DNA from: Bacteroidales bacterium
GTDB lineage: Bacteria; Bacteroidota; Bacteroidia; Bacteroidales; JAHJDW01
Reading direction: 5' to 3'
Length of the DNA stretch: 64,000 nt
Assembly: GCA_041671145.1 (NCBI GenBank)
Contig: JBAZBZ010000002.1
Coordinates: 16,854-80,853 of the forward strand
A program made the translations under genes and the position numbers. Shown one piece after another: positions 14,835 through 36,473 of the stretch. How positions within the stretch are numbered: position 1 is the first letter of the stretch; each line of letters begins with the position of its first letter. The notes under the pieces are model-generated. The model did not search any database. It was not told the origin of the DNA and was given only the letters and a program-made list of their open reading frames with translations.

Positions 14835-15572
14835 ATGAAATATTTTTTTAATAAATTATTTACTAAAAACAAAAAAAGTAATTATAACGCAAATTTAATT
14901 AATGTTCAAAACAGAGAAGCATGGCTTGAAAAAACATTAAAAGAAATTCCTCATGGAGAAAAAATATTAGATGCCGGTGCCGGAGAACTGCAATATAAAA
15001 AATTTTGTTCCCATCTAAACTATGTTTCGCAAGATTTCGGGCAATATAAAGGTACGGGCAATAATTGCGGCTTGCAAACACAAACATGGAATAATGATAA
15101 AATCGATATAATATCCGATATCACAAATATTCCTGTTGCTGACAATTCATTTGATGCTATTTTGTGTATTGAAGTTTTAGAACATGTTCCCGCTCCCATT
15201 TCAGCTATTAAAGAATTCTCAAGAATATTGAAAAAAAATGGAAAACTAATTATAACCGCACCATTTGCAAGTTTAACACACTTCGCTCCTTATCACTATT
15301 ATTCGGGATTTAATAAATATTTTTTCGAAAAATATTTACAGGAAAATTCACTATCAATAATTGAAATTTTACCAAATGGAAACTATTTCGATTTTTTGAA
15401 TCAGGAATTATCATTAAGAATACCAAATAAATATTCTGAACTCAAACTATCAAAGAAAGAAAAAAATTCATTAAAAACAGTTATGAACCTTTTATATAAG
15501 TTAAGCATGACAGACAAAGGTTCTTCTGATTTATTATGTTTTGGTTTTAATATTAAAGCCGTAAAAATATGA
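14835..15572 (+). CDS. Class I SAM methyltransferase
   Basis: ILDAGAGELQ and FDAILCIEVLEHVPAPISAIKEFSRILKKNGKLIITAP. Confidence 0.75.
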   Translation: MKYFFNKLFTKNKKSNYNANLINVQNREAWLEKTLKEIPHGEKILDAGAGELQYKKFCSHLNYVSQDFGQYKGTGNNCGLQTQTWNNDKIDIISDITNIPVADNSFDAILCIEVLEHVPAPISAIKEFSRILKKNGKLIITAPFASLTHFAPYHYYSGFNKYFFEKYLQENSLSIIEILPNGNYFDFLNQELSLRIPNKYSELKLSKKEKNSLKTVMNLLYKLSMTDKGSSDLLCFGFNIKAVKI

Positions 15573-16441
15573 TTGTTGTTAAATTAATAGGTGGTCTCGG
15601 AAATCAATTGTTTCAATACGCTTTGGGCAGACATTTGGCAATTAAAAATAACACTTTGCTAAAACTTGATTTGAGTTTTCTCAGAGCCAGACCGGAAAAC
15701 GCAGATTATATTTTTAGGGATTATGAATTAAATGTTTTCAAAATAAACGAAAATTTCGCAACAGATAAAGAAATTGCAAAATATCATACTATGTCAAAAG
15801 CCACAAAGGGCTTAAATAAGATTATTCAAAAAATAATGCAATATAAAATCGTGAATGAAAAAGAACCTTTTGTATATGATGAAGAAATTTTAAATTCTCC
15901 AAAAAAATCACTTTTATGCGGTTTTTGGCAAAATGAAAAATATTTTTCGGAAATTGAAAATATTATCAGAAAAGAATTTGCTTTCAAACAAAATCCCGAT
16001 TCAATAAATTTAAAATCTATTGAAAAAATAAAATCCACAGAATCTATAAGTATTCACATCAGAAGATACAATCCTGCTTCAGATATATATCATGGACTAT
16101 GCGATATGGAATATTATGAAAAAGCAATAAAGGTTATATCTCAAAAATCATCCAATCCATACTTTTACATATTTTCAGACGACATTAGCTGGTGCAAGAA
16201 AAATTTCAAATCAGAAAATCATACATTTGATTTTATTGAACATAATGCAGATAGAAGTTACGAAGACCTGAGATTAATGCTCAATTGCAAGCATCATATT
16301 ATTGCAAACAGCACATTCAGTTGGTGGGGAGCATGGTTATGTGCAAATAAAGATAAAATAATTATTGCTCCTCAAAAATGGTTAAATACCGATAAATATC
16401 AAACAAAAGAATTATTTTTACAAAACTGGATAAAACTATAA
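15569..16441 (+). CDS. GT11 alpha-1,2-fucosyltransferase-like (divergent motif I)
   Basis: MIVVKLIGGLGNQLFQYALGRHLA, GFWQNEKYF, HIRRYN (in place of HxRRGDY) and IIANSTFSWWGAWL. Confidence 0.8.
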   Translation: MIVVKLIGGLGNQLFQYALGRHLAIKNNTLLKLDLSFLRARPENADYIFRDYELNVFKINENFATDKEIAKYHTMSKATKGLNKIIQKIMQYKIVNEKEPFVYDEEILNSPKKSLLCGFWQNEKYFSEIENIIRKEFAFKQNPDSINLKSIEKIKSTESISIHIRRYNPASDIYHGLCDMEYYEKAIKVISQKSSNPYFYIFSDDISWCKKNFKSENHTFDFIEHNADRSYEDLRLMLNCKHHIIANSTFSWWGAWLCANKDKIIIAPQKWLNTDKYQTKELFLQNWIKL

Positions 16442-16445
16442 AACC

Positions 16446-17444
16446 ATGGAACAAAAATTTTTAGATATTCTATGTTGCCCTATCACCAAACAATCACTAT
16501 ACCTTGAAACAACTAAATTATTTGATAATGGCACAGTAGAGGAAGGATTTTTAACAACAAAAAATAAAGAATATAAATACCCTATTTTAAAAGGTATTCC
16601 AAGATTTGTATCAAAAGAAAATTATGCAAAAAGTTTCGGATTTGAATGGAAAAAATGGGCTTTAGTTCAATACGAATCAGAGAATATTGGAAAACCAATG
16701 GAAAATTGGACAACAAAAATGTTCGAGAAAATAACAAGCTTGCCAGATGAATATTTTAAAAATAAATTAATAATTGATTTCGGATGCGGCGGCGGAAGAT
16801 TTATAGATGTAGTTAGAAAAAAAGGAGGAACTGTTGTTGGAATAGATATGAGCTTGGCAGTTGAGCCGGCGAAAGAATATTTTATAAATGACAAAAATGT
16901 TTTAATAATACAAGGCGATATTTTGAATCCGCCATTTAAAGAGAATGCATTTGATATGGGGTACGCTATAGGAGTATTGCATCATACACCTAATCCATTT
17001 TCTGCATTTAAAGAACTACATAAAACATTAAAAAAAGGAGCATATTTGGCATGTTGTGTGTATACAAAAAAAGGATATTACGACTTTAAATCAGTCCGAA
17101 GATTCAGAAAACTTATTCAAATCACCAGATTTTTATTCGGTTACAATCTGGCAATATTATACGCTAAGTTTTCCGCAACATTTCTTTTCAAGTATTTCCC
17201 TTACTTTTCAAAAGTACCAAAATATGGAGGAGACAAAATAAAATATTATTTAGAACAGAACTGGTTTCCTGTACTGTATCTGCCTGATAAGAGATGGAGG
17301 ATTTTGGATGTATTCGATTCCATAACTCCTAAATATGCATCAGCTCATACCGAAGAGGAAGTATTTTCGTGGTACACTAATACTAACTGTTCCGACATTA
17401 AAAATACTGATTTTTTTAAATCATCTTTTTCGGGTATCAAATAA
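16446..17444 (+). CDS. SAM methyltransferase with Trm112-like N-terminal segment
   Basis: LDILCCPITKQSL (Trm112-like), IIDFGCGGGRF (motif I) and FDMGYAIGVLHHTPNP. Confidence 0.7.
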   Translation: MEQKFLDILCCPITKQSLYLETTKLFDNGTVEEGFLTTKNKEYKYPILKGIPRFVSKENYAKSFGFEWKKWALVQYESENIGKPMENWTTKMFEKITSLPDEYFKNKLIIDFGCGGGRFIDVVRKKGGTVVGIDMSLAVEPAKEYFINDKNVLIIQGDILNPPFKENAFDMGYAIGVLHHTPNPFSAFKELHKTLKKGAYLACCVYTKKGYYDFKSVRRFRKLIQITRFLFGYNLAILYAKFSATFLFKYFPYFSKVPKYGGDKIKYYLEQNWFPVLYLPDKRWRILDVFDSITPKYASAHTEEEVFSWYTNTNCSDIKNTDFFKSSFSGIK

Positions 17445-17453
17445 AATGTTTAT

Positions 17454-19277
17454 ATGTGCGGAATAGCAGGTATAGTTGTAAATAATTCAAAGGAGTATAC
17501 TGAGCATTTGAAGAAAATGCTCAGCATAATTAATCATCGTGGTCCTGATAACGAAGGTTTTTTGCACTTTGATAATTGTTTACTGGGGCACACGCGCCTG
17601 AGCATAATCGACCTTTTCACCGGCAATCAACCAATGCTGAACAATAATAAAAATACCGGTATAACTTTCAACGGTGAAATATATGGTTTCGATGAAATAA
17701 AAAAAAAAATTAAAGATTATAATTTTAAAACAAAATCCGATACCGAAGTAATTCTTGCATTGCATGAAAAATACGGAACAAAAATGCTTCAATATCTTCC
17801 CGGTGCTTTCTCTTTTGCTATTTGGGACAATAACGAAAAACAATTATTTTGTGCAAGAGACAGATTCGGCGAAAAACCTTTCTATTACGCTTTAGGAAAA
17901 AATAACGAACTGATTTTTGCATCAGAAATCAAATCAATACTATCGACAAATCTTGTATCTCCGGAATTAGATATTGACTCTCTTGTTCATTATTTAAAAC
18001 ATTTATATGTTCACCCTCAAAAAACTATTTATAAAAATATTCATACCATACCCCCGGCTCATTGTTTAATATATAAAGAAGGAAATTTAATCATTGAAAA
18101 ATATTGGCATTTACCCCAAACAAATGAAAAAATAAAATTCAATGATGCAGTTTCACAATTCACTGAATTATTTGACAAAGCCGTAAATAAATGCATGGTT
18201 GCTGACGTCCCTGTTGGAATATTCTTAAGCGGCGGTGTTGATTCATCAAGCATTGTAGCTTCAGCAAGTCAATTCAGCAACAATGTTCATACTTTCTCAT
18301 GCGGATTCGGTGAAGCTATTAATGAATTGCCTTTTGCAAAAGAAATTGCGAAAAAATACAAAACAAATCATGTTGAATTGCAGGTTAAAGAAAGTAATAT
18401 AGCCGAACTAATATTGGAAATGCAGAATATTTATGACGAGCCATTTGCCGATTCTTCAAATATTCCAACCTACCTGATTTCAAAAGAAGCTAAAAAATAT
18501 GTTAAAGTTATCTTGGGAGGTGACGGTGGCGACGAACTTTTAGCCGGTTACTCTTTTTGGTATAGAAGAATTTTTAAATTGGAAAGAGCATTGAATAGAA
18601 AAATCAGTTACTTTGAATTCATGCATTTAATTGATAAATTTAATTATAAGTTTAAATTAAATCTCCCTTTATCCAATTATTACGAGCAACTTAAATTAAA
18701 GAAGGATTTCAAAACAATTCAGGATTTATATAATATTACAAATTTATATTTTTATGACTCGGAAATTTCAAGTATTCTTAAAAATAATAATTCTAAAACT
18801 GAAGCAAAAAAAGTTGACTCTTTGAATGATGTCTTGTTTGAAGATATTCAGAATTATTTACCGGGAGATATTTTAACTAAAACAGACAGAGCTTCTTTAT
18901 CAAATAGTTTGGAATTGCGAACACCTTTCTTAGAAATTAATTTTGCTGAATTTTGCATATCTTTACCTTTAAGTTTTAAAATGAATACCGAAAAAGACAA
19001 ATTGATAATGCGTAAGGCATTTGCTGATAGATTAACTCCATCAATTTTAAACAGAAGAAAACAAGGTTTCGGTGCTCCGGTAGAAATATGGTTAAAAAAC
19101 AAAGATGTTGTTCAATTAAAAGAAAAATTTCTGAAAAATCAAAATTCTAAAATATATTCTATTTTTGATTATAAAAATACAATGACTTGTTATAGCGAAG
19201 ATAATTACAAAACATGGATATTACTGATTTTATCTATTTGGTTTGAAAAGCAAAATTTTTCCACAACAAATGACTGA
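17454..19277 (+). CDS. Asparagine synthase (glutamine-hydrolysing)-like amidotransferase
   Basis: MCGIAGIV N-terminal nucleophile, HRGPD, and a SGGVDSS PP-loop. 607 aa. Confidence 0.85.
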   Translation: MCGIAGIVVNNSKEYTEHLKKMLSIINHRGPDNEGFLHFDNCLLGHTRLSIIDLFTGNQPMLNNNKNTGITFNGEIYGFDEIKKKIKDYNFKTKSDTEVILALHEKYGTKMLQYLPGAFSFAIWDNNEKQLFCARDRFGEKPFYYALGKNNELIFASEIKSILSTNLVSPELDIDSLVHYLKHLYVHPQKTIYKNIHTIPPAHCLIYKEGNLIIEKYWHLPQTNEKIKFNDAVSQFTELFDKAVNKCMVADVPVGIFLSGGVDSSSIVASASQFSNNVHTFSCGFGEAINELPFAKEIAKKYKTNHVELQVKESNIAELILEMQNIYDEPFADSSNIPTYLISKEAKKYVKVILGGDGGDELLAGYSFWYRRIFKLERALNRKISYFEFMHLIDKFNYKFKLNLPLSNYYEQLKLKKDFKTIQDLYNITNLYFYDSEISSILKNNNSKTEAKKVDSLNDVLFEDIQNYLPGDILTKTDRASLSNSLELRTPFLEINFAEFCISLPLSFKMNTEKDKLIMRKAFADRLTPSILNRRKQGFGAPVEIWLKNKDVVQLKEKFLKNQNSKIYSIFDYKNTMTCYSEDNYKTWILLILSIWFEKQNFSTTND

Positions 19278-20148
19278 AAATATTCCTGATATTACCGTTT
19301 TAATGCCTGTTTATAATTGCGAGAAATATATTAAAGAGTCCGTTGAAAGCATTCTAAACCAAACATTCGTTAATTTTGAATTTTTAATAATAAATGATGC
19401 TTCAACTGACAATACAAGAAACATTATTTCATCATACAATGACAAAAGAATTATTTTAATTGACAATAATGAAAATATAGGATTGTCAAAATCATTAAAC
19501 AAAGGGATTGAAATAGCGAAAGGAAAATATATTGCCAGAATGGATGCAGATGATATTTCATTGCCCACAAGATTAGAAAAGCAATTTTATTTTTTAAATA
19601 ATAATATTGAATATTGTCTTGTTGCTGCCAAAATAATTGGAATCAATGAAAAAAGTAAAGAAACAAGCATGTGGGATAATGATAATAACAATATTACATA
19701 TCGTGATATTTATTATTTTTTGCCTAAAGCCAACTGTATAGCACATCCAACAGTTCTAATCAGAAAAGAGATATTGATTGAATACAAATATTCGGAAAAA
19801 CCATATTTTTCGCAAGATTGGGATTTGTGGTTAAGATTAATATCCGATAAAAAGAAAATAGCAAAGCTCGATGAAGTTTTGCTCAAATACAGAGTTCACA
19901 ATTCTTCTGTTTCTAATTTTAGTGAAAATAAAAACAAAGGAAAAAAAAGCATAATTTTGAGGTATAATTTTTTGAAGAATCAATTCTATAAATTAAAAAT
20001 AAACACTATATTTTTAAAGGTTTCTTTCTTTTTATTAATTGAAATAAAAATATTTTACCTGAATAAAATTAAAAGTATTTTTAAACATGCATACAATTAT
20101 TTTTATTCAATAATTGAGTATAAAATAATAAAAAAAATATATTATTAA
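19270..20148 (+). CDS. GT2 glycosyltransferase
   Basis: ITVLMPVYNCEKYIKESVESILNQ...LIINDASTDNT and ARMDADD. I chose the ATG at 19270, which gives an 8-nt overlap with the asnB-like stop. Confidence 0.8.
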   Translation: MTENIPDITVLMPVYNCEKYIKESVESILNQTFVNFEFLIINDASTDNTRNIISSYNDKRIILIDNNENIGLSKSLNKGIEIAKGKYIARMDADDISLPTRLEKQFYFLNNNIEYCLVAAKIIGINEKSKETSMWDNDNNNITYRDIYYFLPKANCIAHPTVLIRKEILIEYKYSEKPYFSQDWDLWLRLISDKKKIAKLDEVLLKYRVHNSSVSNFSENKNKGKKSIILRYNFLKNQFYKLKINTIFLKVSFFLLIEIKIFYLNKIKSIFKHAYNYFYSIIEYKIIKKIYY

Positions 20149-20149
20149 A

Positions 20150-20887
20150 ATGCCAAGTAATTTATTTAATAGAAAGAAAAAAACAAAAGTAGGAATACTA
20201 TATCTATGTACAGGAAAATATGATTTATTTTTTAAAAAGTTCTATTATACCTGTGAAAAATATTTTTTAAGAAACTGCGAAAAACATTATTTCATCTTTA
20301 CCGATTCCAAATTACATTTCCCCGGAAACAAAAGGATTCACAAGATTTTTCAGGAGCATCTTGGTTGGCCGAACATGGCATTAAAAAGATATCATATATT
20401 TATTAATTGTTTAAATTTATTTGAAGAATTTGATTACCTCTTTTTTTGTAATGCAAATTTAGTTTTCATTAATTATATTGATGAAGAAATTCTGCCGAAA
20501 AAAGAAGGTCTGCTTGCTGTTAAGCATCCACATTCATATGGTACAGAAAGAAAAGATTTTCTTTATGAAAAAAATCCCTTATCTACTGCTTATATTAATG
20601 ATAATGAAGGCGAATATTATTTCATGTCAGGATTTATTGGAGGAAAAACAGAAAATTTTATTGAATTAATTAAAACCATAAAACAAAATACAGATAAGGA
20701 TTTAGAAAAAAATATTATTGCAGCATGGCACGATGAGTCACATTGGAATAGATATTTAATAGGTAAGAATGCTAAAATTCTTGATTATTTTTATTGTGCG
20801 GCAGAGGGTATGACAACACGTAACTTCACGAAAATAATAATTATCGACAAACGTAACTATGGTGGACATAAATATTTGAGACAATAG
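20150..20887 (+). CDS. GT6 family glycosyltransferase (ABO / alpha-1,3-Gal(NAc) transferase-like, bacterial NxN type)
   Basis: GILYLCTGKYDLFF, LGWPN, LKRYHIF, DYLFFCNANLVF (NAN replaces DxD), AAWHDESHWNRYL and YGGHKYLRQ. Confidence 0.85.
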   Translation: MPSNLFNRKKKTKVGILYLCTGKYDLFFKKFYYTCEKYFLRNCEKHYFIFTDSKLHFPGNKRIHKIFQEHLGWPNMALKRYHIFINCLNLFEEFDYLFFCNANLVFINYIDEEILPKKEGLLAVKHPHSYGTERKDFLYEKNPLSTAYINDNEGEYYFMSGFIGGKTENFIELIKTIKQNTDKDLEKNIIAAWHDESHWNRYLIGKNAKILDYFYCAAEGMTTRNFTKIIIIDKRNYGGHKYLRQ

Positions 20888-21016
20888 CAAAACCACCAAA
20901 TTAAATGGAAAATCTATTATTTCAATACACAGAAGAAAAATCATTGACAATATTGGGCAACAAAGAATTAAAATTTCACCTTCCTACATTTAATAAAGGT
21001 AATTCATCTGAAAGTT

Positions 21017-22309: not shown

Positions 22310-23148
22310 TAATAGTTAAACTTCAAGGCGGAATAGGCAATCAAATGTTCCAATATGCGATAGGAAAACATATTGCAATATTGAACAATATGGAATTAAA
22401 GCTTGATATTTCTTCATTTGAAAAAGATTCTCTAAACAGAAAATACGAACTGCATAATTTTAATATTTCAGAAAGTATTGCTTCAGAAAAGGAAATTAAA
22501 AAAATTATTAATAAAAGGTTTTTTGCTTTTTCACAAAACAACACTATAATAAAGCAACGATTTTTTGAATACGATGCTGAAGTATTGAAAAAATACAATA
22601 ACAACATTTACCTTGACGGTTTTTGGCAAAGCGAAAAATATTTCTTTCAAATTAAAAATATCATACAAAAAGAATTTACATTAAAATACGCAAATGACTT
22701 CAACAAAAATTTCGAACATATTTTAAATAAAACCGAAACCCTCAATTCTGTTGCAGTTCACGTTCGCCGCGGCGACTATGTGAATTCAAAATTCGGACAA
22801 AATAATTACCGAAACATTCACTCTGAAGGATATTATAAAAAAGCATTTGAAATAATTTCAAAAAAAACATCCGCTCCCGTTTATTTTATGTTTTCAGATG
22901 ATATCGAATGGTGCAAGAATGAATTTAAAAAAATAAAAGATTTAATTTTTATCGAATCCCATAAACCTCATGAAGACCTTATATTAATGAGCTTATGCAA
23001 ACATCAGATAACAGCAAACAGTTCGTTCAGCTGGTGGGCGGCATGGCTGAATAATAATCCTTATAAAACTATTATAGCTACTGATAAATGGTTTTATAAT
23101 AACTGGAATACAATTAATTTAATATCCGAAAATTGGACAAAAATTTAA
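22306..23148 (+). CDS. GT11 alpha-1,2-fucosyltransferase
   Basis: MIIVKLQGGIGNQMFQYAIGKHIA, GFWQSEKYF, HVRRGDYV and ITANSSFSWWAAWL. Confidence 0.85.
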   Translation: MIIVKLQGGIGNQMFQYAIGKHIAILNNMELKLDISSFEKDSLNRKYELHNFNISESIASEKEIKKIINKRFFAFSQNNTIIKQRFFEYDAEVLKKYNNNIYLDGFWQSEKYFFQIKNIIQKEFTLKYANDFNKNFEHILNKTETLNSVAVHVRRGDYVNSKFGQNNYRNIHSEGYYKKAFEIISKKTSAPVYFMFSDDIEWCKNEFKKIKDLIFIESHKPHEDLILMSLCKHQITANSSFSWWAAWLNNNPYKTIIATDKWFYNNWNTINLISENWTKI

Positions 23149-23151
23149 ATA

Positions 23152-30343: not shown

Positions 30344-30555
30344 CTGTTTAAATTTTGTAAGTGATTGAAATTACTGCTGTTAATTTGATGTTTTGTTTAT
30401 TTAACTTTTTTAGTTGCTCCCTCCCCACAACCTAAACACATGCTGATCGCGAATACCCATGCCTTTCTTCGTTGAAAACAGCACTGAATTTTTAATCATT
30501 TACGGTTTCTGCAACCTATTTTGTTTGCATGGATATTTCATATATTTTAATTTTA
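30305..30555 (-). repeat. Duplicated 5' module, copy A (leader + start codon + first ~12 codons)
   Basis: Aligns by eye with 35113..35365. Shared strings on the + strand include cttacaaaatttaaa (read on the minus strand), aacttttttagtt, aatcatttacggttt and ttgtttgcatggatatttca. It is GC-enriched relative to its flanks. Confidence 0.75.
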
Positions 30556-30593
30556 GTTTCTTATAATTTATTTTTCGCAGCATTTAATCTGTT

Positions 30594-31544
30594 TTAATGT
30601 ACATTCCCGTTAAAAAAAGAATTCACAAAGCTACGGGTATTAATCAACTCATATCGTTCCATTAAATTAGATATTATTCTTTCCGATTTTTGTATTTTAT
30701 TTTTAACGGAAATTTTGATATTTGGGTGAACCGCAAGTTCATTAGGAATACCATCACTCAAATCCATAAATTCAATTATATGGAACAAATACATCATATA
30801 CGGCTTATTTATTTTTTTTGAAATATAGTTTGAATATATGGAAGGAGCCCATAAATTAAAACTATTATAAAACGGAAGTCCCAGTACATTAGTCCTTGAA
30901 AATGGCAATTCCAAAAATTTATGGGATTTCGCATCTGGAACCAACCAATTATTTGCACTTGGTGTGTATGGATATTGTTCAAGTTTATTAGTAACAGTTC
31001 CGAAATCTGCATTATTGAGTCCGTTTTTAAAAAGCGCTCCATGCAAGATTCTAATAATAGGCACCACAATTGACCAAAATCCCGAAGAATCATATTTAAG
31101 CCCCAAATCTACAGCAATATTAATTACCTTTGAATTGACACTACAGCCGGGAGAGCGAAAACCTATTGGAGTAATACCGGTTATTTTCGCTATTATTTGA
31201 TTACACATTTTAATTTCTTCCTTTATTTTTTCTTCAGGCAAATTTGCCAACCCAAAAGGATGAGAATAGGTGTGGTTTTCTATTTCATGACCATACTTGT
31301 GCGCTTGCAAAATAATATTTTTAATAGCTTCACTGCTTTCAAGCTCGTCTCCAACCACAAAGAAAGTAACTTTTATATTTCGCTGGTTAAAAAAGTCCAA
31401 TGCTCTATTCCAAGCTGTTTTGTAAAACAATTCAAGCTTATTCTGATCGAAAACCACATTATTAATCTTATAGAAATTCATGAGTTTTACCGGTGAATCC
31501 ACATCAACAGTGATAATTAGTTTTCGTTCGTTATGATTATTCAT
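30594..31544 (-). CDS. Polysaccharide deacetylase (CE4 / NodB homology domain)
   Basis: ITVDVDSP and VTFFVVGDELESSEAIKNIILQAHKYGHEIENHTYSHP. Confidence 0.8.
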   Translation of the reverse strand: MNNHNERKLIITVDVDSPVKLMNFYKINNVVFDQNKLELFYKTAWNRALDFFNQRNIKVTFFVVGDELESSEAIKNIILQAHKYGHEIENHTYSHPFGLANLPEEKIKEEIKMCNQIIAKITGITPIGFRSPGCSVNSKVINIAVDLGLKYDSSGFWSIVVPIIRILHGALFKNGLNNADFGTVTNKLEQYPYTPSANNWLVPDAKSHKFLELPFSRTNVLGLPFYNSFNLWAPSIYSNYISKKINKPYMMYLFHIIEFMDLSDGIPNELAVHPNIKISVKNKIQKSERIISNLMERYELINTRSFVNSFFNGNVH

Positions 31545-31568
31545 CTATTCTATTATTAATTTTTAGTA

Positions 31569-32237
31569 TCAAATGCTTTTCGTTTGTATGATAATTGCAA
31601 CTTCATTTGGGTTATCAGATTGAATAAAAATCACTGAGTGTTTTTGATAAAACTTTATTGCCCTGTCATTAGTTTTTAAAATTCGTCCCAATATGTTTTG
31701 TATATTGTTTATTTTAAAATGAGCTATAACAGTTTTCAATATTACATTTGGAATACTTATTTTTTCAATCGGGTCGATGCTTTTTCGGAAATTCTCCAAT
31801 ACTCCACATGACAAATACTCACCCATTTTATAACAATACTCATTTTGTTGTAATTTCCCCAATAATGTATCTTTTTTCATTTTTAATAAAAATTTCAAAA
31901 ATAATATTATTCTATTGGGTTTTGATACCATAATAATCCCTAACAATACAAAAACCAGAATAAAATATTTCCTCATTCCTTCTTTCATAAATGTAAAAGG
32001 TTTATTTGTACATGAACCGAATCCAACATATTCCTCATTTTGTTTATACAGATAAACTTCAATTAAATTGTTCTTTGTAAGTTTAGAATAATAAAACTTT
32101 GAAAGAAATAAATAGCCGAGTTTTGAAAGAATGCTTTCGGGTAATAGTTTAATGTGCAGATTACTCACTGCTTTCACATGTTCTTTATTATCCCACTTTA
32201 AATAGATAATATTTTGATTGTTTGTTTTGTACTCCAT
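31569..32237 (-). CDS. GNAT-like acetyltransferase candidate with a central hydrophobic insert
   Basis: EEYVGFGSCT and C-terminal ILGRILKTNDRAIKFYQKHSVIFIQ (GNAT motif B-like). Weak. Confidence 0.45.
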   Translation of the reverse strand: MEYKTNNQNIIYLKWDNKEHVKAVSNLHIKLLPESILSKLGYLFLSKFYYSKLTKNNLIEVYLYKQNEEYVGFGSCTNKPFTFMKEGMRKYFILVFVLLGIIMVSKPNRIILFLKFLLKMKKDTLLGKLQQNEYCYKMGEYLSCGVLENFRKSIDPIEKISIPNVILKTVIAHFKINNIQNILGRILKTNDRAIKFYQKHSVIFIQSDNPNEVAIIIQTKSI

Positions 32238-32298
32238 GTTTATTTAGTTTTATATTTTGACTTACGGAGTGACATTGAGGCACTCCGTAAGTTAAATT

Positions 32299-33798
32299 TC
32301 AATTACTTTTTTTCTTAAGCATTTTATTCAAAGGTCTGTCAATTATTGCATTTGTAAAATCAAAAATTTCAATTTTTCTATTATTTTTTCTGTTAAAAAG
32401 CATTACTTTATTTATATTTATTGAAGTGTCAACTTTTTGGATTATTGTTTTATTTGATTTAAGATGAAAATTTGTTTGTTGGGCATCAGTATCATAATAA
32501 TAACAAACAGTATCATTTTTTTCATAAGCATTATCAATATTCTTTGCAATCACACTGAAAAATTTATTCTTTGATACAAAATAATTATTAAAATCATAAA
32601 TTATCATTATGCCAAAATACACTACAAGCAAAATAAAAAGGATATACCTAAAAATATTTTTCATGAAAAACATTTCATAAATTCCTATTGATAAAAAAAT
32701 TATTATAAAAGGGATAGAAAATTGCGAATATTGTTTTGCAAAAGAAGCAGTGTGTCCTGTTTTAATTGCTATCAAGTCAGCCAACAAAAAACATGAAAAA
32801 CCAGTAGTAAAAATCAGAAACAACTTACTCATTTCATTTTTTTTTATATTTTTAAATGAGAATAAAATGAAAACTATGGGTATGAAAAGAACTAAAATCA
32901 GATACCTCATTTTATAGCCCCATCCAAGCATATCCCAATGCAAACTGTCGCCAATGAGGTATGTAAATAACTGATATGTATATAAAATCATAATTTTAAT
33001 GCTTATTACTTTAGTCCATTTATTCATTTCTTTTGCATCTTTCAGCCTCATTTCACTTCTGTATGCTATCTGCTGAAACCCTTTATATCCATACGCAAAA
33101 TACCATGCAAGAAAAACCACTATTACAATTGCAGCGCATATCAATAGATTTTTCCATTTAACTTTGTCTCTTAAAAATAAAATTGCAAATAGTGCATGAA
33201 CTATAATTATATAGAAAGCAGAATAATGCGCAAACAGTAATGCAATAGTTGAAATTATATATAAAAAATAATTTATTGTTTTATCTTTTTCATAAACTAT
33301 TTTAACAAAATAAAATGACGAAATAAGCGAAAGCAAAGTCGCAAACTCATAAGTACGAGATAACGCACTGAATTGAATTAGCGAAGGATGTATAATAGCA
33401 ATCGCAGAACTGATGTATGCTACATTTATATTGAATAATTTCCTTGCAAGCAAAAAAGTAAATAAAACAACTAATGCACCGCAAATTACAGAAAGCAATC
33501 TTGTTGCAAAATCGCTGCTTCCGAATGCACATGACCAGTAATACAGAACAATATTATACAACAAGCAATTTCCCGATTCGAAAAAGAAGTTATTATTTAT
33601 AACCTTTGTAATATTATTTTCAATAAACGACTTGTTATCAAAAGTGGAAGAAGAATAAAGTATCTGGTTATTTGAAGAAGTGTACGTAATAATATATTCA
33701 TCCCAGTTCTTTGGTGTACTATTTATTGAAATTATTCTCATAGCAAAAGCTACTATGAATATTGTTAAAGCAATTAATGTTTCTTTTTTATATCTCAT
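32299..33798 (-). CDS. GT-C (ArnT/PMT_2-like) polytopic glycosyltransferase candidate, paralog B
   Basis: 499 aa with WDEY after TM1. It shares NINVAYISSAIAIIHPSLIQF, HALFAILFLRDKVKWKNL and DAQQTNFHLKSNKTIIQKVDTSININKV identically with paralog A. Confidence 0.65.
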   Translation of the reverse strand: MRYKKETLIALTIFIVAFAMRIISINSTPKNWDEYIITYTSSNNQILYSSSTFDNKSFIENNITKVINNNFFFESGNCLLYNIVLYYWSCAFGSSDFATRLLSVICGALVVLFTFLLARKLFNINVAYISSAIAIIHPSLIQFSALSRTYEFATLLSLISSFYFVKIVYEKDKTINYFLYIISTIALLFAHYSAFYIIIVHALFAILFLRDKVKWKNLLICAAIVIVVFLAWYFAYGYKGFQQIAYRSEMRLKDAKEMNKWTKVISIKIMILYTYQLFTYLIGDSLHWDMLGWGYKMRYLILVLFIPIVFILFSFKNIKKNEMSKLFLIFTTGFSCFLLADLIAIKTGHTASFAKQYSQFSIPFIIIFLSIGIYEMFFMKNIFRYILFILLVVYFGIMIIYDFNNYFVSKNKFFSVIAKNIDNAYEKNDTVCYYYDTDAQQTNFHLKSNKTIIQKVDTSININKVMLFNRKNNRKIEIFDFTNAIIDRPLNKMLKKKSN

Positions 33799-33861
33799 GA
33801 GTTGTATCTATTTTCTTAATTAATTATTAAGATATATTTCCTATTCAAAAATCATATAAAA

Positions 33862-35151
33862 TCAAATTATTCTTATACTTTTAATATATTTTTCAAACAA
33901 TAATATATTTGCAATTACAACAATACTTATCCCACCAATATAATACATCGGAAAAGGATATACCAATACTCCGGGAATAATATAAAAACCAAAAGTAATC
34001 AGAAAAATTAAAATTGTTTTAAATGAAGATTTTGTTTTAAAGAAATAGTAGATTCCTAAATTAAACGAAATGAAAATAAACATCAAAACATATATGAATT
34101 TTTGAAATAATGTTTTCAAAAAAAATATTTTATCATTTATTATTATTTTCAAACACACATTTTTCATGATGTCTTCATATTCTTTAGGATATTTGTAAAA
34201 ATCAATTTCTAATTTCTTATTTATTTTCTTTGCGACATTAAAACCCGTGGTATCATGGCATGTTATACCATATTTATTATTACCAAAACCCATACCTAAA
34301 TATAAACTATGCCATAAAACATGTTTGTTATTTACTAAATTAATTTTATTTTCATACTTATGTTCAATAAGCCAATTGTTTCTTTTATTAATTAAATGAT
34401 TAAAATATATTGAAGGAATATATATAGGCATTGTAATAAATAGCAAACAAATAATTTTATACTTAATGCTAAAGTTATTTTTATTATAAAACAAAACATA
34501 TAAAATAAAAAACAACAATAAACCTGTTCCTGAATTGCTTCTGAATTTATTTGAAATTCCAATAAAAACTCCTATAAAAAACAATATCAATAAAAACAAC
34601 TTGCTTTTACTGCTATCAGCTTTTTTTAAAAAATATATTATTAAAGGAATAAATGAAATAATAAAAAAAGACAGAATATAAACATTCATAACAAAGAAGC
34701 AAAACAAAGATAACAAGCAATACAATGAATAAGAGTATATTTTGCTCAATTTATCATCGAACAACAAAGAAAATCCTATTGTAGCGACAAAAAATCCGGA
34801 AATAATAAATAGAGAAAATAATAATAAATAAGCATTAGGGATAGTTGAAATATTTAAACTATTTTTTACTGCTACTACAAAAAAATAAATACCCATATCA
34901 TCGCCAAAAAGCTCAACAGGATTATACTCTTCTACACGTTCTCCTTTATCATTTGAATTTTCAAGGTAATATAACAAATATGTATTGGTTTTATTAAATG
35001 CTTCATCTGTTTTAATTAGTGCATTTATCCTGAATCCCTGATTTGCAAATTTCAAATTATTAAATAAATCTTTTTCATCAAGTTTATAAAAAGCAAATAG
35101 TATTAAAATAAAAACTAAGGACGGAACAATTAATTTGATATTTTTTTTCAT
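33862..35151 (-). CDS. Polytopic membrane protein of unknown function
   Basis: About 429 aa from ATG (MKKNIKLIVPSLVF...); the ORF track begins at an upstream TTG (35172). Many TM segments. Only its N-terminal ~20 aa resemble GT-C paralog A. Confidence 0.55.
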   Translation of the reverse strand: MKKNIKLIVPSLVFILILFAFYKLDEKDLFNNLKFANQGFRINALIKTDEAFNKTNTYLLYYLENSNDKGERVEEYNPVELFGDDMGIYFFVVAVKNSLNISTIPNAYLLLFSLFIISGFFVATIGFSLLFDDKLSKIYSYSLYCLLSLFCFFVMNVYILSFFIISFIPLIIYFLKKADSSKSKLFLLILFFIGVFIGISNKFRSNSGTGLLLFFILYVLFYNKNNFSIKYKIICLLFITMPIYIPSIYFNHLINKRNNWLIEHKYENKINLVNNKHVLWHSLYLGMGFGNNKYGITCHDTTGFNVAKKINKKLEIDFYKYPKEYEDIMKNVCLKIIINDKIFFLKTLFQKFIYVLMFIFISFNLGIYYFFKTKSSFKTILIFLITFGFYIIPGVLVYPFPMYYIGGISIVVIANILLFEKYIKSIRII

Positions 35152-35365
35152 GCTTTTAAATTTTGTAAGCAATTAAAATTTCTGCTTTTAATTTTCTATT
35201 TTAGTTAATAAACTTTTTTAGTTACTCACTCCCGCAAAAGCCAACCGCACAACCTGCTCGTGAATATCCATGCCTTACTTTGTTAAAAGTTGCGTTGCTC
35301 ATTTAATCATTTACGGTTTGTGCATTTTTTTTGTTTGCATGGATATTTCAGCATATTTATTTTTA
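35113..35365 (-). repeat. Duplicated 5' module, copy B
   Basis: Homologous to 30305..30555. Contains the inverted repeat gaatatccatgc (35262-35273) / gcatggatattt (35337-35348). Confidence 0.75.
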
Positions 35366-35402
35366 AAATATTATCAAAATTTCTGATTTCAGGTTGTTTG
35401 GT

Positions 35403-36473
35403 TTATCTCAACTCCAAATATTCAAAATGATTGTGTATATTATTAATAAAGCCGCTCGGTGAAATATATTCTTCATAAAGTTTTCTTATATTCAATTGAA
35501 GATTTAAAAATTCCTCATCGGAAATGCTGTTATGAAAATCCAAAAGTATCTTGTCGATTTTATTTATTTCGTTTTCTTCAACCCAAACTACATATTTTTT
35601 CCAGTCGATGCAAAAATCATAAGGCAACACACAATCGGTATTAATAAAAACAGGAATTCTTCCGCAAATAATAGTTTCATAAAAACGATAGGAATAATTT
35701 CCTCCTCCTCTTGTGCATAGCACATAATTATTATTTATTATATTATCGATAAACATTTTTTTATTCTGCGACATGGTAAGCTTTTTATCGCCAAACATAC
35801 TGGTTATTGTTATATCTGAATTTATTTTATCATTATTTTTCAAAATTTTTAATGCATCAGCTCTGAATTTATAACCATCGTAATACCACTTTTCATGCAA
35901 CAAACATTTTTTTGAAATCTTATAAGAAACCCTGTTAATATTATTTTTTAATTTCTTTTTAAATATCTCCAGTGCATCAATAGGCTGCGAACAACCTCTG
36001 AAACCTATTTTAGGTTTTTCTTCTTTTTTGCTTAAAAAATAATTATCTTTAAAATTTATTACTTTTATATCTTCTCTCCACGAAGGCATTGCAAAATTTA
36101 TCGAATTTGCGGTTCTCTGTTTTGATTTATTTAATGAAGTTCTGAAAACAATCGAATTTTCTAAACCTATATCTTTATCATCATCATCATAATAAAATAC
36201 AATTATCTTTTTATTCTTTTCGTTTGCAAGATTTATAAGGAATTTCGACTTTTCGAGTAAATTCAATGCTTTAAGCCATTCCCAGTTTATTGGCAAAATA
36301 AAAAAGTCGGCATTATCTGGTTCATGCACCAGTTCAAAACCGAAATTTGATTGAGAACATGGATTATTTTTATTGTCATTAAAAAGAATAGATGTTAAAA
36401 TAAATGATAAATTCTCAATATTATTCTTTGCAATATTAAAATCCGTAAACAATTTAATTTTTGTTGAATCCAT
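35403..36473 (-). CDS. Exostosin-like (GT47-type) glycosyltransferase
   Basis: YVLCTRGGGNYSYRFYETIICGRIPVFINTDCVLPYDFCIDWKKYVVWVEENEI matches the exostosin C-terminal block (F.L.PRG....S.R..E....GCIPV...D...LP....W..F). Confidence 0.65.
   Translation of the reverse strand: MDSTKIKLFTDFNIAKNNIENLSFILTSILFNDNKNNPCSQSNFGFELVHEPDNADFFILPINWEWLKALNLLEKSKFLINLANEKNKKIIVFYYDDDDKDIGLENSIVFRTSLNKSKQRTANSINFAMPSWREDIKVINFKDNYFLSKKEEKPKIGFRGCSQPIDALEIFKKKLKNNINRVSYKISKKCLLHEKWYYDGYKFRADALKILKNNDKINSDITITSMFGDKKLTMSQNKKMFIDNIINNNYVLCTRGGGNYSYRFYETIICGRIPVFINTDCVLPYDFCIDWKKYVVWVEENEINKIDKILLDFHNSISDEEFLNLQLNIRKLYEEYISPSGFINNIHNHFEYLELR

What the first reader, a model, noticed from the sequence alone, without database searches (positions are those of the whole stretch)
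15569..36473. Four animal-type GT families (GT11 x2, GT6, GT14, GT47-like) in one bacterial locus: candidate histo-blood-group / host-glycan mimic
The locus encodes several families best known from animal glycan synthesis.
- Two alpha-1,2-fucosyltransferase-like GT11 enzymes (15569..16441 and 22306..23148).
- A GT6 ABO-type transferase (20150..20887).
- A core-2/I-branching GT14 (23900..24883).
- An exostosin-like protein (35403..36473).

Established enzymology says GT11 enzymes build Fuc-alpha1,2-Gal (H antigen). GT6 enzymes then add alpha1,3-Gal or GalNAc to that H structure to give B or A antigen. E. coli O86 makes a blood-group-B-like O antigen with exactly such a GT6 (WbnI) plus GT11 (WbnK) pair. 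A second GT11 with a divergent motif I (HIRRYN instead of HxRRGDY) plus a branching GT14 suggests a more elaborate, branched, doubly fucosylated epitope. The locus is ABC-transporter exported rather than Wzx/Wzy dependent. That this locus makes an A/B/H-like epitope is inference only.
Basis: partly seen in the sequence, partly recalled or inferred. Interest (0 to 1): 0.7.

Follow-up and report, generated by a model that had tools for sequence, protein, structure and literature searches.

The report
Bacterial blood-group-like sugar-chain gene cluster
An uncultured Bacteroidales bacterium carries a large surface-polysaccharide gene island containing the common bacterial GT2-GT6-GT11 trio, which probably makes a blood-group-A/B-like sugar motif; this is an ordinary new example of a known kind and gives no evidence of host mimicry.

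Summary
All five family calls are correct at the stated coordinates: GT11 twice, GT6, GT14 and a GT47-like protein. NCBI's annotation already gives these genes the same names.

The "animal-type" label does not hold. GT11, GT14 and the exostosin-like family are large prokaryotic families. GT6 relatives occur in 522 species-level genomes from many phyla, including free-living soil, freshwater and CPR bacteria.

GT6 next to GT11 is the rule: 68 of the 80 best GT6 loci have one. A homologue of the upstream GT2 is usually present as well (46 of 80). The A/B/H-like trisaccharide inference is therefore reasonable, but it follows a known pattern (E. coli O86, B. ovatus BoGT6a).

GT14 and the GT47-like gene lie in separate, opposite-strand units and almost never accompany GT6 elsewhere.

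Export by a Wzm/Wzt ABC transporter is supported. The membrane protein between GT6 and GT11-B has a GT-C (PimE-like) fold and is not Wzy.

Three features are unusual:
- GT11-A lacks the near-invariant Asp of motif I.
- GT6 has an untested MSG donor motif, a divergent acceptor loop and no C-terminal membrane tail.
- Eight methyltransferases argue against a faithful host mimic.

No GDP-fucose genes lie in the window. Verdict: a new member of a known kind, of low to moderate interest.

The parts
3744..4589 (-). Wzm, ABC-2 type permease of the polysaccharide exporter
   Evidence: Pfam ABC2_membrane E=3e-16. Six hydrophobic segments. Homologues in 19 of 80 GT6 loci.
6148..7398 (+). Wzt, exporter ATPase with a C-terminal carbohydrate-binding-type extension
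   Evidence: ABC_tran E=9e-22, with a sub-threshold Wzt_C hit. NCBIfam Wzt/TagH-like. Aligns to full-length Aquifex Wzt 8dku over residues 46-362, E=5e-64.
4871..23148 (+). Main tightly packed + strand operon. It holds the FkbM and SAM methyltransferases (4871, 7410, 12880, 14835, 16446), DegT aminotransferase 8267-9373, WbqC-like 9733-10437, GNAT 11378-11851, GT2 11844-12854 and 13917-14804, AsnB-type amidotransferase 17454-19277, and the GT2-GT6-GT-C-GT11 block.
   Evidence: ORF list with overlapping or very short gaps. Pfam and NCBIfam assignments.
15569..16441 (+). GT11-A, an alpha-1,2-fucosyltransferase-family paralogue with aberrant motif I (HIRRYN; the Asp is lost and a short deletion follows)
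   Evidence: PF01531 E=8e-31. 42% identical to GT11-B. The motif-I Asp is kept in 193 of 195 aligned GT11 sequences; this is one of the two exceptions.
19243..20148 (+). GT2 immediately upstream of GT6, the candidate maker of the beta-Gal acceptor (WbnJ-like role, inferred)
   Evidence: Glycos_transf_2 E=5e-34. Strong homologues (E<1e-25) within about 5 kb of GT6 in 46 of 80 loci.
20150..20887 (+). GT6, a metal-independent (NXN) retaining alpha-1,3-Gal/GalNAc transferase homologue
   Evidence: PF03414 E=1e-36. NF041524 above cut-off. BoGT6a 4ayj E=3e-57. N101-A-N103, H126, Y157, W193, E196 and K234 are conserved. Donor motif is MSG. H128, T132 and L138 are atypical. The C-terminal basic-hydrophobic tail is absent.
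21017..22309 (+). 430-aa polytopic membrane protein with a GT-C fold (GT87/PimE-like), not Wzy
   Evidence: Nine hydrophobic segments. AlphaFold2 model with 31-sequence alignment: pLDDT 82, pTM 0.85. Foldseek best matches are PimE 9dm7/9dm5 (E=6e-4, TM 0.52-0.60), then PIG-M and ALG6. Three of 31 homologues hit Pfam GT87. Elsewhere its homologues sit with small GT2, DegT and methyltransferase genes, not with GT6/GT11.
22306..23148 (+). GT11-B, a canonical alpha-1,2-fucosyltransferase-family protein (HVRRGDY); the likely partner of GT6
   Evidence: PF01531 E=1e-34. Motif I intact. GT11 lies next to GT6 in most of the 80 loci.
23152..24883 (-). Separate convergent two-gene unit: methyltransferase 23152-23916 and GT14/Branch-family transferase 23900-24883
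   Evidence: Pfam. Best solved relatives of the GT14 are xylosyltransferase-1 6ej7 (E=4e-13) and C2GnT 2gak (E=2e-6), with the catalytic DE kept. Bacterial plasmid homologues in 22 records. A GT14 homologue is present in only 3 of 80 GT6 loci.
25096..27299 (+). GT2 (25096-26115) and GT4 (26112-27299) pair, divergent from the GT14 unit
   Evidence: Pfam.
27300..38005 (-). Minus-strand block. It holds an unknown 295-aa protein, Methyltransf_24, two 75%-identical PMT_2/GT-C paralogues (28832-30343 and 32299-33798), polysaccharide deacetylase 30594-31544, an unknown 222-aa protein, an unassigned 436-aa membrane protein, the GT47-like protein 35403-36473, and an unassigned 502-aa membrane protein.
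   Evidence: Pfam. TM counts. Paralogy. GT47-like: PF03016 E=5e-13 for the C-terminal part only; EXT1 only E=0.02; 1281 representatives at E<=1e-10.
964..3518 (-). Polyprenyl-phosphate-sugar-synthase-like GT2 with C-terminal TM helices (964-2055) and an unassigned 494-aa 11-TM protein (2034-3518). Likely supply and use of lipid-linked sugar for periplasmic decoration (inferred).
   Evidence: Pfam GT2. NCBIfam weak AglJ/PpgS/ArnC-like hits. TM counts.

Best explanation
Window ~964-38005 is a ~37-kb surface-polysaccharide (O-antigen-type) biosynthesis island of an uncultured, ~27% GC Bacteroidales bacterium.

The polymer is assembled in the cytoplasm. It is exported by a Wzm/Wzt ABC transporter whose ATPase carries a carbohydrate-binding-type C-terminal extension.

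Inside the main + strand operon sits a cassette that is widespread in bacteria: GT2 (19243-20148), GT6 (20150-20887) and GT11-B (22306-23148). By homology with E. coli O86 WbnJ/WbnK/WbnI and B. ovatus BoGT6a, I infer three steps:
1. The GT2 lays down a beta-galactoside.
2. GT11-B adds alpha-1,2-fucose to it.
3. The metal-independent GT6 adds alpha-1,3-Gal, or possibly Gal and GalNAc. This follows from Met at the position equivalent to human residue 266.

The product would be an A/B-blood-group-like trisaccharide element within or on the polymer.

GT11-A is a paralogue whose donor-binding motif I has lost the near-invariant Asp. It is either impaired or has a changed specificity.

GT14, the GT47-like protein, GT2/GT4, at least three GT-C enzymes, eight methyltransferases, an amidotransferase and amino-sugar enzymes belong to the same island but to other transcription units. 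They add non-mammalian sugars and decorations, so the final glycan is not expected to be a faithful host mimic.

Shown here: family membership, conserved catalytic residues, the cassette's recurrence, the transporter, and the GT-C fold. Inferred: the linkages, the donors, the order of action, and that all units act on one glycan.
For: - Family assignments.
- GT6 versus BoGT6a: E=3e-57, with NAN, H126, Y157, W193, E196 and K234 conserved.
- GT6 loci in 522 species genomes.
- GT11 within the flanks in 68 of 80 loci, mostly adjacent on the same strand.
- Homologue of the upstream GT2 at E<1e-25 in 46 of 80 loci.
- A Wzt-type ATPase (E<1e-30, mostly 410-440 aa) in 22 of 80 GT6 loci. In Paludibacter locus L007 the order is wzt-GT6-GT11.
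- Two GT11 genes plus a methyltransferase around GT6 recur, e.g. L027: GT11-FkbM-GT2-Wzx-GT6-GT11.
- Wzt aligns with full-length Aquifex Wzt, including part of the CBD.
- The 430-aa protein has a GT-C fold.
- G+C content of the GT genes (0.24-0.28) matches the surrounding locus, so there is no sign of recent foreign origin.
- Literature: BoGT6a transfers GalNAc to 2'-fucosyllactose and is metal-independent through NXN (PMC3516806). In the code table, MGG gives dual A/B, MGA and MGS give B, and AGG gives A (PMC5377540). CBD-bearing Wzt proteins recognise capped O-antigen termini (PMC7685785).
Against: - No GDP-fucose synthesis genes (gmd, fcl) lie anywhere in the 64-kb window.
- The GT6 acceptor loop is atypical. 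H128 and L138 are each unique among the 63 aligned GT6 proteins and T132 is seen in 2 of 63, so the acceptor may not be a classical H structure.
- The MSG donor motif is not in the experimental code table.
- GT6 lacks the C-terminal membrane-association tail that most homologues have.
- A GT-C gene interrupts the usual GT6-GT11 adjacency.
- Three polytopic membrane proteins (494, 436 and 502 aa) remain unassigned, so a cryptic Wzy or Wzx cannot be excluded.
- No initiating transferase or ligase was seen in the window.
- No biochemical data exist for any of these proteins.
Confidence: 0.6

Rival explanations
1. Host-glycan mimicry. The five 'animal-type' transferases cooperate to display a genuine, branched, doubly fucosylated A/B/H histo-blood-group epitope that mimics an animal host's glycans.
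For: The GT6/GT11/GT2 triad is the one that makes the blood-group-B O-antigen of E. coli O86, and BoGT6a makes A antigen (PMC4202792, PMC3516806). GT6 keeps His126 and a small residue at the position that admits the 2'-fucose. Some GT6 loci are from host-associated bacteria such as Bacteroides cutis, Capnocytophaga, Helicobacter and Lachnospiraceae.
Against: - GT6-GT11 cassettes are equally common in free-living or non-animal lineages: Chitinophagales, Pedobacter, Mucilaginibacter, Geobacter, and groundwater Nomurabacteria, Parcubacteria and Saccharibacteria. The cassette therefore does not imply a host.
- The habitat of this MAG is unknown.
- GT14 and the GT47-like gene are in other transcription units and are absent from nearly all GT6 loci.
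- Eight methyltransferases, an amidotransferase, a deacetylase and several GT-C enzymes predict a heavily modified, non-mammalian glycan.
- GT11-A lacks a residue reported as important for activity (PMC8593560).
Confidence: 0.12
2. The GT6 and GT11 enzymes make a related but non-ABH structure. The divergent GT6 acceptor loop and the altered GT11-A motif reflect different acceptors or donors (for example another GDP-6-deoxyhexose, or a non-fucosylated acceptor). On this reading no Fuc-alpha1,2-(Gal/GalNAc-alpha1,3)-Gal motif is produced.
For: GT6 positions H128 and L138 are each unique to this protein among the 63 aligned GT6 sequences; T132 and S160 are each seen in 2 of 63. The MSG motif is untested. 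GT11-A lacks the motif-I Asp found in 193 of 195 relatives. No gmd/fcl lies in the window. GT11 is known to contain enzymes with other specificities, such as the alpha-1,3-FucT HhFT2 (PMC4202792).
Against: GT11-B is fully canonical. GT6 keeps the His/Trp/Glu/Lys set shared by fucosyl-galactoside-using enzymes. The very strong GT6-GT11 linkage across phyla argues that GT6 enzymes of this clade need a GT11 product.
Confidence: 0.25
3. The island is a mosaic of two or more independent pathways. One is the ABC-exported polymer (+ strand operon). The other is a periplasmic or lipid-linked decoration or other glycoconjugate system (minus-strand block 27300-38005 with GT-C x2, deacetylase and GT47-like protein, plus 964-3518). 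On this reading the five named transferases never act on one glycan.
For: Five changes of transcription direction. None of the minus-strand genes except the GT47-like protein (one weak hit, L036) and the 295-aa protein (L039) has a homologue in the 80 GT6 loci. GT-C homologues elsewhere sit in Arn-like contexts (small GT2 + DegT + methyltransferase + sulfatase-family enzyme) without GT6 or GT11. The PMT_2 genes were recently duplicated.
Against: The genes are packed contiguously with gaps of only a few bases at the convergent junctions (23148/23152 and 27299/27300) and uniform composition. This is typical of a single glycan island. Periplasmic GT-C decoration of an exported O-polysaccharide is an established theme. 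This reading is compatible with most of the best explanation.
Confidence: 0.35

Closest known systems
E. coli O86 O-antigen cluster (WbnI GT6, WbnK/WbwK GT11, WbnJ GT2), which makes a blood-group-B-like O-antigen
   Same: Same triad of families in one polysaccharide locus. The GT6 is the bacterial NXN type. The predicted order is beta-Gal, then alpha-1,2-Fuc, then alpha-1,3-Gal (PMC4202792, PMC5377540).
   Different: O86 is Wzx/Wzy-dependent (PMC7685785), whereas this locus has Wzm/Wzt. Here there are no GDP-fucose genes in the window, a second aberrant GT11, a GT-C gene between GT6 and GT11, eight methyltransferases, and only distant sequence relatedness.
Bacteroides ovatus BoGT6a (PDB 4ayj/4ayl/4cjb), a metal-independent blood-group-A synthase
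   Same: E=3e-57 over the whole catalytic domain. NAN motif, catalytic Glu, His/Tyr/Trp/Lys acceptor and catalytic residues all conserved. Same bacterial order.
   Different: Donor tripeptide is MSG rather than AGG, so Gal or dual specificity is predicted instead of GalNAc. Gly124->His, Lys128->Thr and Thr134->Leu in acceptor Loop1. The C-terminal basic-hydrophobic membrane tail is missing.
ABC-transporter-dependent O-polysaccharide systems with CBD-bearing Wzt (E. coli O9a, K. pneumoniae O12, Aquifex aeolicus Wzm/Wzt)
   Same: Wzm plus an extended Wzt. Methyltransferases lie next to the transporter genes, as expected for capped chains (PMC7685785).
   Different: No WbdD-like kinase/methyltransferase terminator was recognised. 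The Wzt_C Pfam hit is sub-threshold. The GT complement is much larger and includes GT6/GT11. No such system with a GT6 has been characterised experimentally, to my knowledge.
Other uncharacterised GT6 loci, e.g. L027 (Chitinophagales MAG: GT11-FkbM-GT2-Wzx-GT6-GT11), L007 (Paludibacter MAG: wzt-GT6-GT11) and L016 (Mucilaginibacter MAG: AsnB, Wzt, GT6, GT11 x2)
   Same: Same modules: two GT11, a methyltransferase, GT2, GT6, and in about a quarter of loci a Wzt.
   Different: Only about 50% protein identity. None has the GT-C insertion, the GT11-A motif change, or the GT14/GT47-like neighbours.
Mycobacterial PimE (GT87), a polyprenyl-phosphate-mannose-dependent GT-C mannosyltransferase
   Same: Best structural match to the 430-aa membrane protein (TM 0.52-0.60). 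A near-invariant Asp lies in the first extracytoplasmic loop of the family alignment.
   Different: About 10% sequence identity. The window protein itself has no Pfam hit. The substrate is unknown.

Membership tests
CAZy GT6, bacterial metal-independent subgroup | Significant match to the family models (Pfam PF03414, NCBIfam NF041524) above curated cut-offs | tested here: met
   PF03414 126.6 bits against cut-off 25. NF041524 261.7 bits against cut-off 250.
CAZy GT6, bacterial metal-independent subgroup | [quoted passage not shown] | tested here: met
   N101-A102-N103 and E196 in WHDES. Among the 63 aligned GT6 proteins, 43 read NAN; at the Glu position 62 have Glu and the other is a gap.
CAZy GT6, bacterial metal-independent subgroup | Residues that fit a 2'-fucosylated galactoside acceptor (His122, small residue at Ile228, Trp189, Lys231 of BoGT6a) | tested here: inconclusive
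   H126, W193, I231/I232 and K234 are conserved. Loop1 positions Gly124->His128, Lys128->Thr132 and Thr134->Leu138 are atypical.
CAZy GT6, bacterial metal-independent subgroup | C-terminal basic-hydrophobic-basic membrane-association tail (PMC3516806) | tested here: not met
   The protein ends at ...YGGHKYLRQ. Most homologues continue for about 15-30 basic/hydrophobic residues. A possible remnant follows the TAG stop in frame.
CAZy GT6, bacterial metal-independent subgroup | Alpha-1,3-Gal/GalNAc transfer activity and donor choice | not testable with these tools
   Only a prediction is possible. The 266-268-equivalent tripeptide MSG is absent from the experimental code table; the nearest entry, MGG, gives dual A/B.
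CAZy GT11 (alpha-1,2-fucosyltransferases) | Match to PF01531 above cut-off | tested here: met
   107.8 and 120.1 bits against cut-off 23.9.
CAZy GT11 (alpha-1,2-fucosyltransferases) | Motif I HxRRxD (GDP-fucose binding; Arg and Asp reported as important in WbsJ) | tested here: not met
   This row is for GT11-A, which reads HIRRYN: the Asp is replaced and a short deletion follows. The Asp is kept in 193 of 195 aligned GT11 sequences (PMC8593560). GT11-B (HVRRGD) meets this feature.
CAZy GT11 (alpha-1,2-fucosyltransferases) | C-terminal conserved motifs (FSDD..WC; ED..LM..C.h.I.ANS.FSWW.AWL) | tested here: met
   Both paralogues carry them in the pairwise alignment.
CAZy GT14 (Branch / core-2 / xylosyltransferase family) | Match to PF02485 above cut-off, with the catalytic acidic residue of the (S/P)-x-D/E-E motif | tested here: met
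   90.4 bits against cut-off 23.4. 'LLSDEMF' aligns with XT1 'LLPAESF'. XT1 E=4e-13, C2GnT E=2e-6.
CAZy GT14 (Branch / core-2 / xylosyltransferase family) | Beta-1,6-GlcNAc branching activity | not testable with these tools
   The best solved relative is a xylosyltransferase, not C2GnT, so the 'branching' function is a name only.
CAZy GT47 (exostosin) | Full-length similarity to the exostosin GT-B domain | tested here: inconclusive
   The PF03016 hit passes the cut-off (49.4 against 33.4 bits) but covers only profile positions 187-290 of 293. EXT1/EXTL3 score only E=0.02-0.04. The protein belongs to a large family of ~350-aa proteins.
E. coli O86-type blood-group-B O-antigen system | GT6 + GT11 + beta-GalT GT2 in one cluster | tested here: met
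E. coli O86-type blood-group-B O-antigen system | GDP-L-fucose synthesis genes in the cluster, and Wzx/Wzy processing | tested here: not met
   No gmd, fcl, Wzx or Wzy family hit anywhere in the window. Wzm/Wzt are present instead.
ABC-transporter-dependent O-polysaccharide pathway | Wzm permease plus Wzt ATPase in the locus | tested here: met
ABC-transporter-dependent O-polysaccharide pathway | Absence of a Wzy polymerase or Wzx flippase | tested here: inconclusive
   The 430-aa membrane protein is GT-C, not Wzy. The 494-, 436- and 502-aa membrane proteins have no family. The single-sequence model of the 436-aa protein failed.

The most novel reading that the evidence does not exclude
This would be a not-yet-described type of ABC-transporter-dependent O-polysaccharide. 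An A/B-like Fuc/Gal element made by GT2-GT11-GT6 would be further methylated and decorated in the periplasm by GT-C enzymes. GT11-A, with its motif-I Asp replaced, would be a neofunctionalised transferase using a different GDP-sugar or acceptor. The divergent GT6 loop would read that altered acceptor. The result would be a non-mammalian 'para-ABH' epitope, possibly serving as the chain-terminating cap sensed by the Wzt carbohydrate-binding domain.
Probability: 0.12. Interest if true: 0.55.

Novelty: new member of a known kind. Interest (0 to 1): 0.27.

Why it matters
If the prediction holds, this is one more source of A/B-like antigens in uncultured Bacteroidales. It would also supply enzymes of possible use in glycan synthesis: a GT6 with an untested Met-Ser-Gly donor motif, and a GT11 with a natural Asp-to-Asn change in the GDP-fucose motif.

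The comparative result has wider interest than the locus itself. The GT2-GT6-GT11 cassette occurs in hundreds of species, including free-living soil, freshwater and CPR bacteria. About a quarter of the loci examined use Wzm/Wzt export. Blood-group-like glycans in bacteria should therefore not be read automatically as host mimicry.

For this window specifically, the finding is a correct annotation that is already public, with an ordinary interpretation.

Tried and rejected
- **Wzy hypothesis for the 430-aa membrane protein between GT6 and GT11-B:** rejected. The AlphaFold2 model (pLDDT 82) matches PimE and other GT-C enzymes.
- **Relating the other unassigned membrane proteins (436, 502 and 494 aa) to that GT-C family by hhalign:** no similarity.
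- **Pfam at E<=10 and NCBIfam for those proteins:** nothing.
- **Single-sequence AlphaFold2 of the 436-aa protein:** pLDDT 48, unusable, so it was not fold-searched.
- **Shared cap hypothesis (Wzt CBDs conserved among GT6 loci):** only 4 of 22 Wzt-bearing loci reach E<1e-5 against this CBD, with a fifth at E=1e-4. Not supported.
- **TAG recoding as an explanation for the short GT6:** rejected. TAG ends 6 of 50 ORFs.
- **Sigma-70 promoter and terminator scan of 19000-28500:** fewer hits than in shuffles, so uninformative. Bacteroidota also use a different promoter consensus.
- **Nearest-neighbour analysis of the two GT11 paralogues:** both are about 45-52% identical to many homologues, with no informative clade.
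- **Habitat of the MAG:** not recoverable. Searching papers for run SRR18595301 found nothing, and contig look-ups returned only that run.
- **Brew et al. 2010 review (PMC2988317):** not held.
- **GT47-like protein against plasmids:** no match.
- **PDB sequence search for both GT11 proteins:** no solved relatives.

Full report
**1.

The window has low G+C (about 27%). It carries Bacteroidota markers downstream: a T9SS CHU_C cargo protein, Omp28 and DUF6029.

- GT11 at 15569-16441(+), E=8e-31.
- GT11 at 22306-23148(+), E=1e-34.
- GT6 at 20150-20887(+), E=1e-36.
- Branch/GT14 at 23900-24883(-), E=2e-25.
- Exostosin_GT47 at 35403-36473(-), E=5e-13, matching only the C-terminal third of the profile.

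The GT6 also passes NCBI's curated model NF041524.

All five proteins are exact matches to public NCBI MAG proteins (MFA6922776, MFA6922780, MFA6922783, MFA6922785 and MFA6922795) of a 'Bacteroidales bacterium'. NCBI already names them alpha-1,2-fucosyltransferase (twice), family 6 glucosyltransferase, beta-1,6-N-acetylglucosaminyltransferase and exostosin family protein.

A separate Logan assembly of run SRR18595301 is identical to window 14916-22760.

**2. Anatomy of the region**

The five genes lie in a ~37-kb glycan island (about 964-38005) with five changes of strand.

| Coordinates | Strand | Contents |
|---|---|---|
| 964-4589 | - | Polyprenyl-phosphate-sugar-synthase-like GT2 with TM helices; unassigned 11-TM protein; Wzm |
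| 4871-23148 | + | Tightly packed main operon (listed below) |
| 23152-24883 | - | Methyltransferase and GT14 |
| 25096-27299 | + | GT2 and GT4 |
| 27300-38005 | - | Minus-strand block (listed below) |

The main + operon contains, in order:
- an FkbM methyltransferase;
- Wzt;
- a methyltransferase;
- a DegT aminotransferase;
- a small HTH protein;
- a WbqC-like protein;
- an unknown protein;
- a GNAT;
- GT2;
- an FkbM methyltransferase;
- GT2;
- a methyltransferase;
- GT11-A;
- a methyltransferase;
- an AsnB amidotransferase;
- GT2;
- GT6;
- a 430-aa membrane protein;
- GT11-B.

The minus-strand block contains:
- an unknown protein;
- a methyltransferase;
- PMT_2;
- a polysaccharide deacetylase;
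- an unknown protein;
- PMT_2;
- a 436-aa membrane protein;
- the GT47-like protein;
- a 502-aa membrane protein.

GT14 and the GT47-like gene are therefore neighbours of the GT6/GT11 genes, not operon partners.

G+C content of the glycosyltransferase genes (0.24-0.28) matches the rest of the locus.

No gmd/fcl or other GDP-fucose genes occur anywhere in the window. A Kdo transferase at 50943-52184 shows that the organism makes LPS.

**3. The families are not animal-type**

- **GT11:** the search returned at least 7842 hits at E<=1e-10, from bacteria and archaea.
- **GT14:** homologues occur on plasmids of Persicobacter, Hymenobacter, Rhizobium, Paracoccus, Sphingobium and Lactiplantibacillus.
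- **GT47-like protein:** it has 1281 cluster representatives at E<=1e-10, almost all about 340-380 aa.
- **GT6:** a scan of one genome per species found 522 loci.

The 80 best GT6 loci include host-associated taxa: Bacteroides cutis, Capnocytophaga, [Haemophilus] felis, Helicobacter, Lachnospiraceae and Gastranaerophilales. They also include many environmental taxa: Pelobium, Pedobacter, Mucilaginibacter, Olivibacter, Paraflavisolibacter, Chitinophagales, Geobacter, and groundwater Nomurabacteria, Parcubacteria and Saccharibacteria.

The literature counted 36 bacterial species with GT6 and then 56 bacterial GT6 proteins, in two 2014 papers (PMC3961637, PMC5377540).

**4. The GT6-GT11 pair is a conserved bacterial cassette**

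I built profile HMMs from the retrieved homologues and searched the six-frame ORFs of the 80 loci.
- 68 loci have a GT11 in the flanks, mostly directly adjacent on the same strand. Several have two.
- A homologue of the GT2 immediately upstream of the window's GT6 is present at E<1e-25 in 46 of 80 loci. It typically lies in a GT6-GT11-GT2 run.
- A Wzt-type ATPase (E<1e-30, mostly 410-440 aa) is present in 22 of 80 loci. In a Paludibacter MAG the order is wzt-GT6-GT11.
- GT14 appears in only 3 of 80 loci and the GT47-like protein in 1 of 80.
- Locus L027 (Chitinophagales) reads GT11-FkbM methyltransferase-GT2-Wzx-GT6-GT11. This parallels the window's GT11-A, methyltransferase, AsnB, GT2, GT6, GT-C, GT11-B.

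This is strong comparative support for a functional GT2/GT11/GT6 unit. By established enzymology the unit builds Fuc-alpha1,2-Gal capped at O-3. The precedents are E. coli O86 WbnJ/WbnK/WbnI, H. mustelae BgtA and BoGT6a (PMC4202792, PMC3516806). It also shows that doubled GT11 genes and ABC export are not unusual for such loci.

**5. Details of the GT6**

It matches BoGT6a at E=3e-57.

*Conserved features.* These were mapped onto the BoGT6a structure papers (PMC3516806):
- the metal-independent N101-A-N103 motif;
- H126, which is His in fucosyl-acceptor enzymes and Gln in alpha3GT;
- Y157 and W193;
- the catalytic E196;
- the invariant K234.

*Donor choice.* The donor-determining tripeptide (human residues 266-268) is Met-Ser-Gly. 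In the experimental code table AGG gives A, MGA and MGS give B, and MGG gives dual A/B. MSG was not tested. Among the 63 aligned GT6 proteins, 28 are AGG and the window protein is the only MSG. I therefore predict Gal or dual Gal/GalNAc transfer, with low certainty.

*Acceptor loop.* H128 and L138 are each unique to this protein among the 63 sequences. T132 and S160 are each seen in 2 of 63.

*C-terminus.* The protein stops right after the catalytic domain. It lacks the basic-hydrophobic C-terminal tail that most homologues carry and that is thought to anchor bacterial GT6 to the membrane (PMC3516806). The in-frame peptide after the TAG stop (QNHQIKWKIYYFNTQKKNH) could be a remnant. TAG is an ordinary stop codon here. 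Truncated BoGT6a is active in vitro, so the catalytic function is probably intact.

**6. Details of the GT11 pair**

The paralogues are 42% identical. GT11-B has the canonical HVRRGDY.

GT11-A has HIRRYN followed by a short deletion. In a profile alignment of 195 GT11 sequences, the motif-I Asp is present in 193. GT11-A is one of the two exceptions.

R154, R155 and D157 of E. coli WbsJ are reported to be important for activity (PMC8593560, citing Li et al. 2008; PMC4202792). GT11-A keeps both Arg residues and the C-terminal motifs. It may be impaired or it may have a changed specificity. 'Doubly fucosylated' is not established.

**7. Export and the membrane proteins**

Wzm and Wzt are clear. 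Wzt aligns with full-length Aquifex Wzt into the carbohydrate-binding domain. This fits a capped, ABC-exported chain (PMC7685785), and methyltransferase genes flank the transporter genes.

The 430-aa protein between GT6 and GT11-B has no Pfam hit. An alignment-based AlphaFold2 model (pLDDT 82, pTM 0.85) matches PimE (GT87) best, followed by PIG-M, ALG6 and related enzymes. Three of 31 homologues hit Pfam GT87. It is therefore a GT-C glycosyltransferase, not Wzy.

Its homologues elsewhere sit with a small GT2, DegT and methyltransferase genes in Arn-like contexts, without GT6 or GT11. None of the 80 GT6 loci has it. It is therefore an insertion into the cassette.

The island also holds the two PMT_2 paralogues and the polyprenyl-phosphate GT2. 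Together with the 430-aa GT-C enzyme, they point to periplasmic decoration of the exported polymer. That is an inference.

Three further membrane proteins (494, 436 and 502 aa) could not be assigned. 'No Wzx/Wzy' is therefore likely but not proven.

**8. Verdict**

The core inference, an A/B/H-like element made by GT6 and GT11, is plausible and comparatively well supported. It belongs to a known class.

Three parts of the interpretation are not supported:
- the 'four animal-type families' framing;
- the recruitment of GT14 and GT47-like proteins into one branched epitope;
- host mimicry.

The habitat is unknown. The many methyltransferases and other modifying enzymes predict a non-mammalian final structure.

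This is a new member of a known kind. Its minor points of interest are the GT11-A motif change, the GT6 MSG motif with its divergent loop and missing tail, the GT-C insertion, and Wzm/Wzt export.

Noticed in passing
window 28832-30343(-) and 32299-33798(-): Two PMT_2 (GT-C, ArnT-like) membrane proteins are 75% identical paralogues lying 3.46 kb apart. DNA identity reaches 78-85% at the gene ends. This looks like a recent tandem-type duplication with different genes in between.
   Followed up: partly
window 20885-20947: GT6 ends at a TAG directly after the catalytic domain and lacks the basic-hydrophobic C-terminal tail of most bacterial GT6. The in-frame continuation (QNHQIKWKIYYFNTQKKNH*) might be a remnant of that tail cut off by a nonsense mutation. 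NCBI accession numbering also implies a small ORF called between GT6 and the GT-C gene.
   Followed up: partly
window 53163-55490(-) and 55415-56311(-): A UvrD/AddA-like helicase-nuclease is split into two overlapping ORFs: one carries the N-terminal helicase part, the other the rest plus a PD-(D/E)XK/Cas4-like end. This is probably a frameshift or an assembly error.
   Followed up: no
window 4871-28774 (eight methyltransferase ORFs: 4871, 7410, 12880, 14835, 16446, 23152(-), 28178(-), plus FkbM types): The island has an unusually high density of SAM-dependent methyltransferases, including two FkbM-type enzymes. This suggests a heavily O-methylated glycan and/or methyl capping for Wzt recognition.
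   Followed up: no
window 8267-11851(+): A DegT (DesI-like, below the equivalog cut-off), a small HTH_24-like ORF, a WbqC-like protein, an unknown 315-aa protein and a GNAT form a block. It is probably a pathway for an N-acylated 4-amino-4,6-dideoxy sugar, with the nucleotide sugar unidentified.
   Followed up: no
L018, L020, L022, L029, L036, L067, L075 (CPR/Patescibacteria loci), GT6 ORFs of about 530-580 aa: In several Nomurabacteria, Parcubacteria and Paceibacterota genomes the open frame containing GT6 is about twice the normal length (for example L020 10001-11587). This suggests fusion of GT6 to a second domain.
   Followed up: no
L057 3774-5363; L053 8235-9995; L068 9977-12862: Single long open frames hit both GT11 and GT6 (L057). 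Others join GT11/GT2-like and GT6 regions back to back (L053, L068). These are possible natural GT11-GT6 or GT2-GT6 fusion proteins in Gastranaerophilales and Dysgonamonadaceae.
   Followed up: no
window 39154-42411(+): Immediately beyond the glycan island lies a 1085-aa T9SS cargo protein with PKD, Ig-like and CHU_C sorting domains. Its G+C is higher (0.33-0.38) than that of the island.
   Followed up: no
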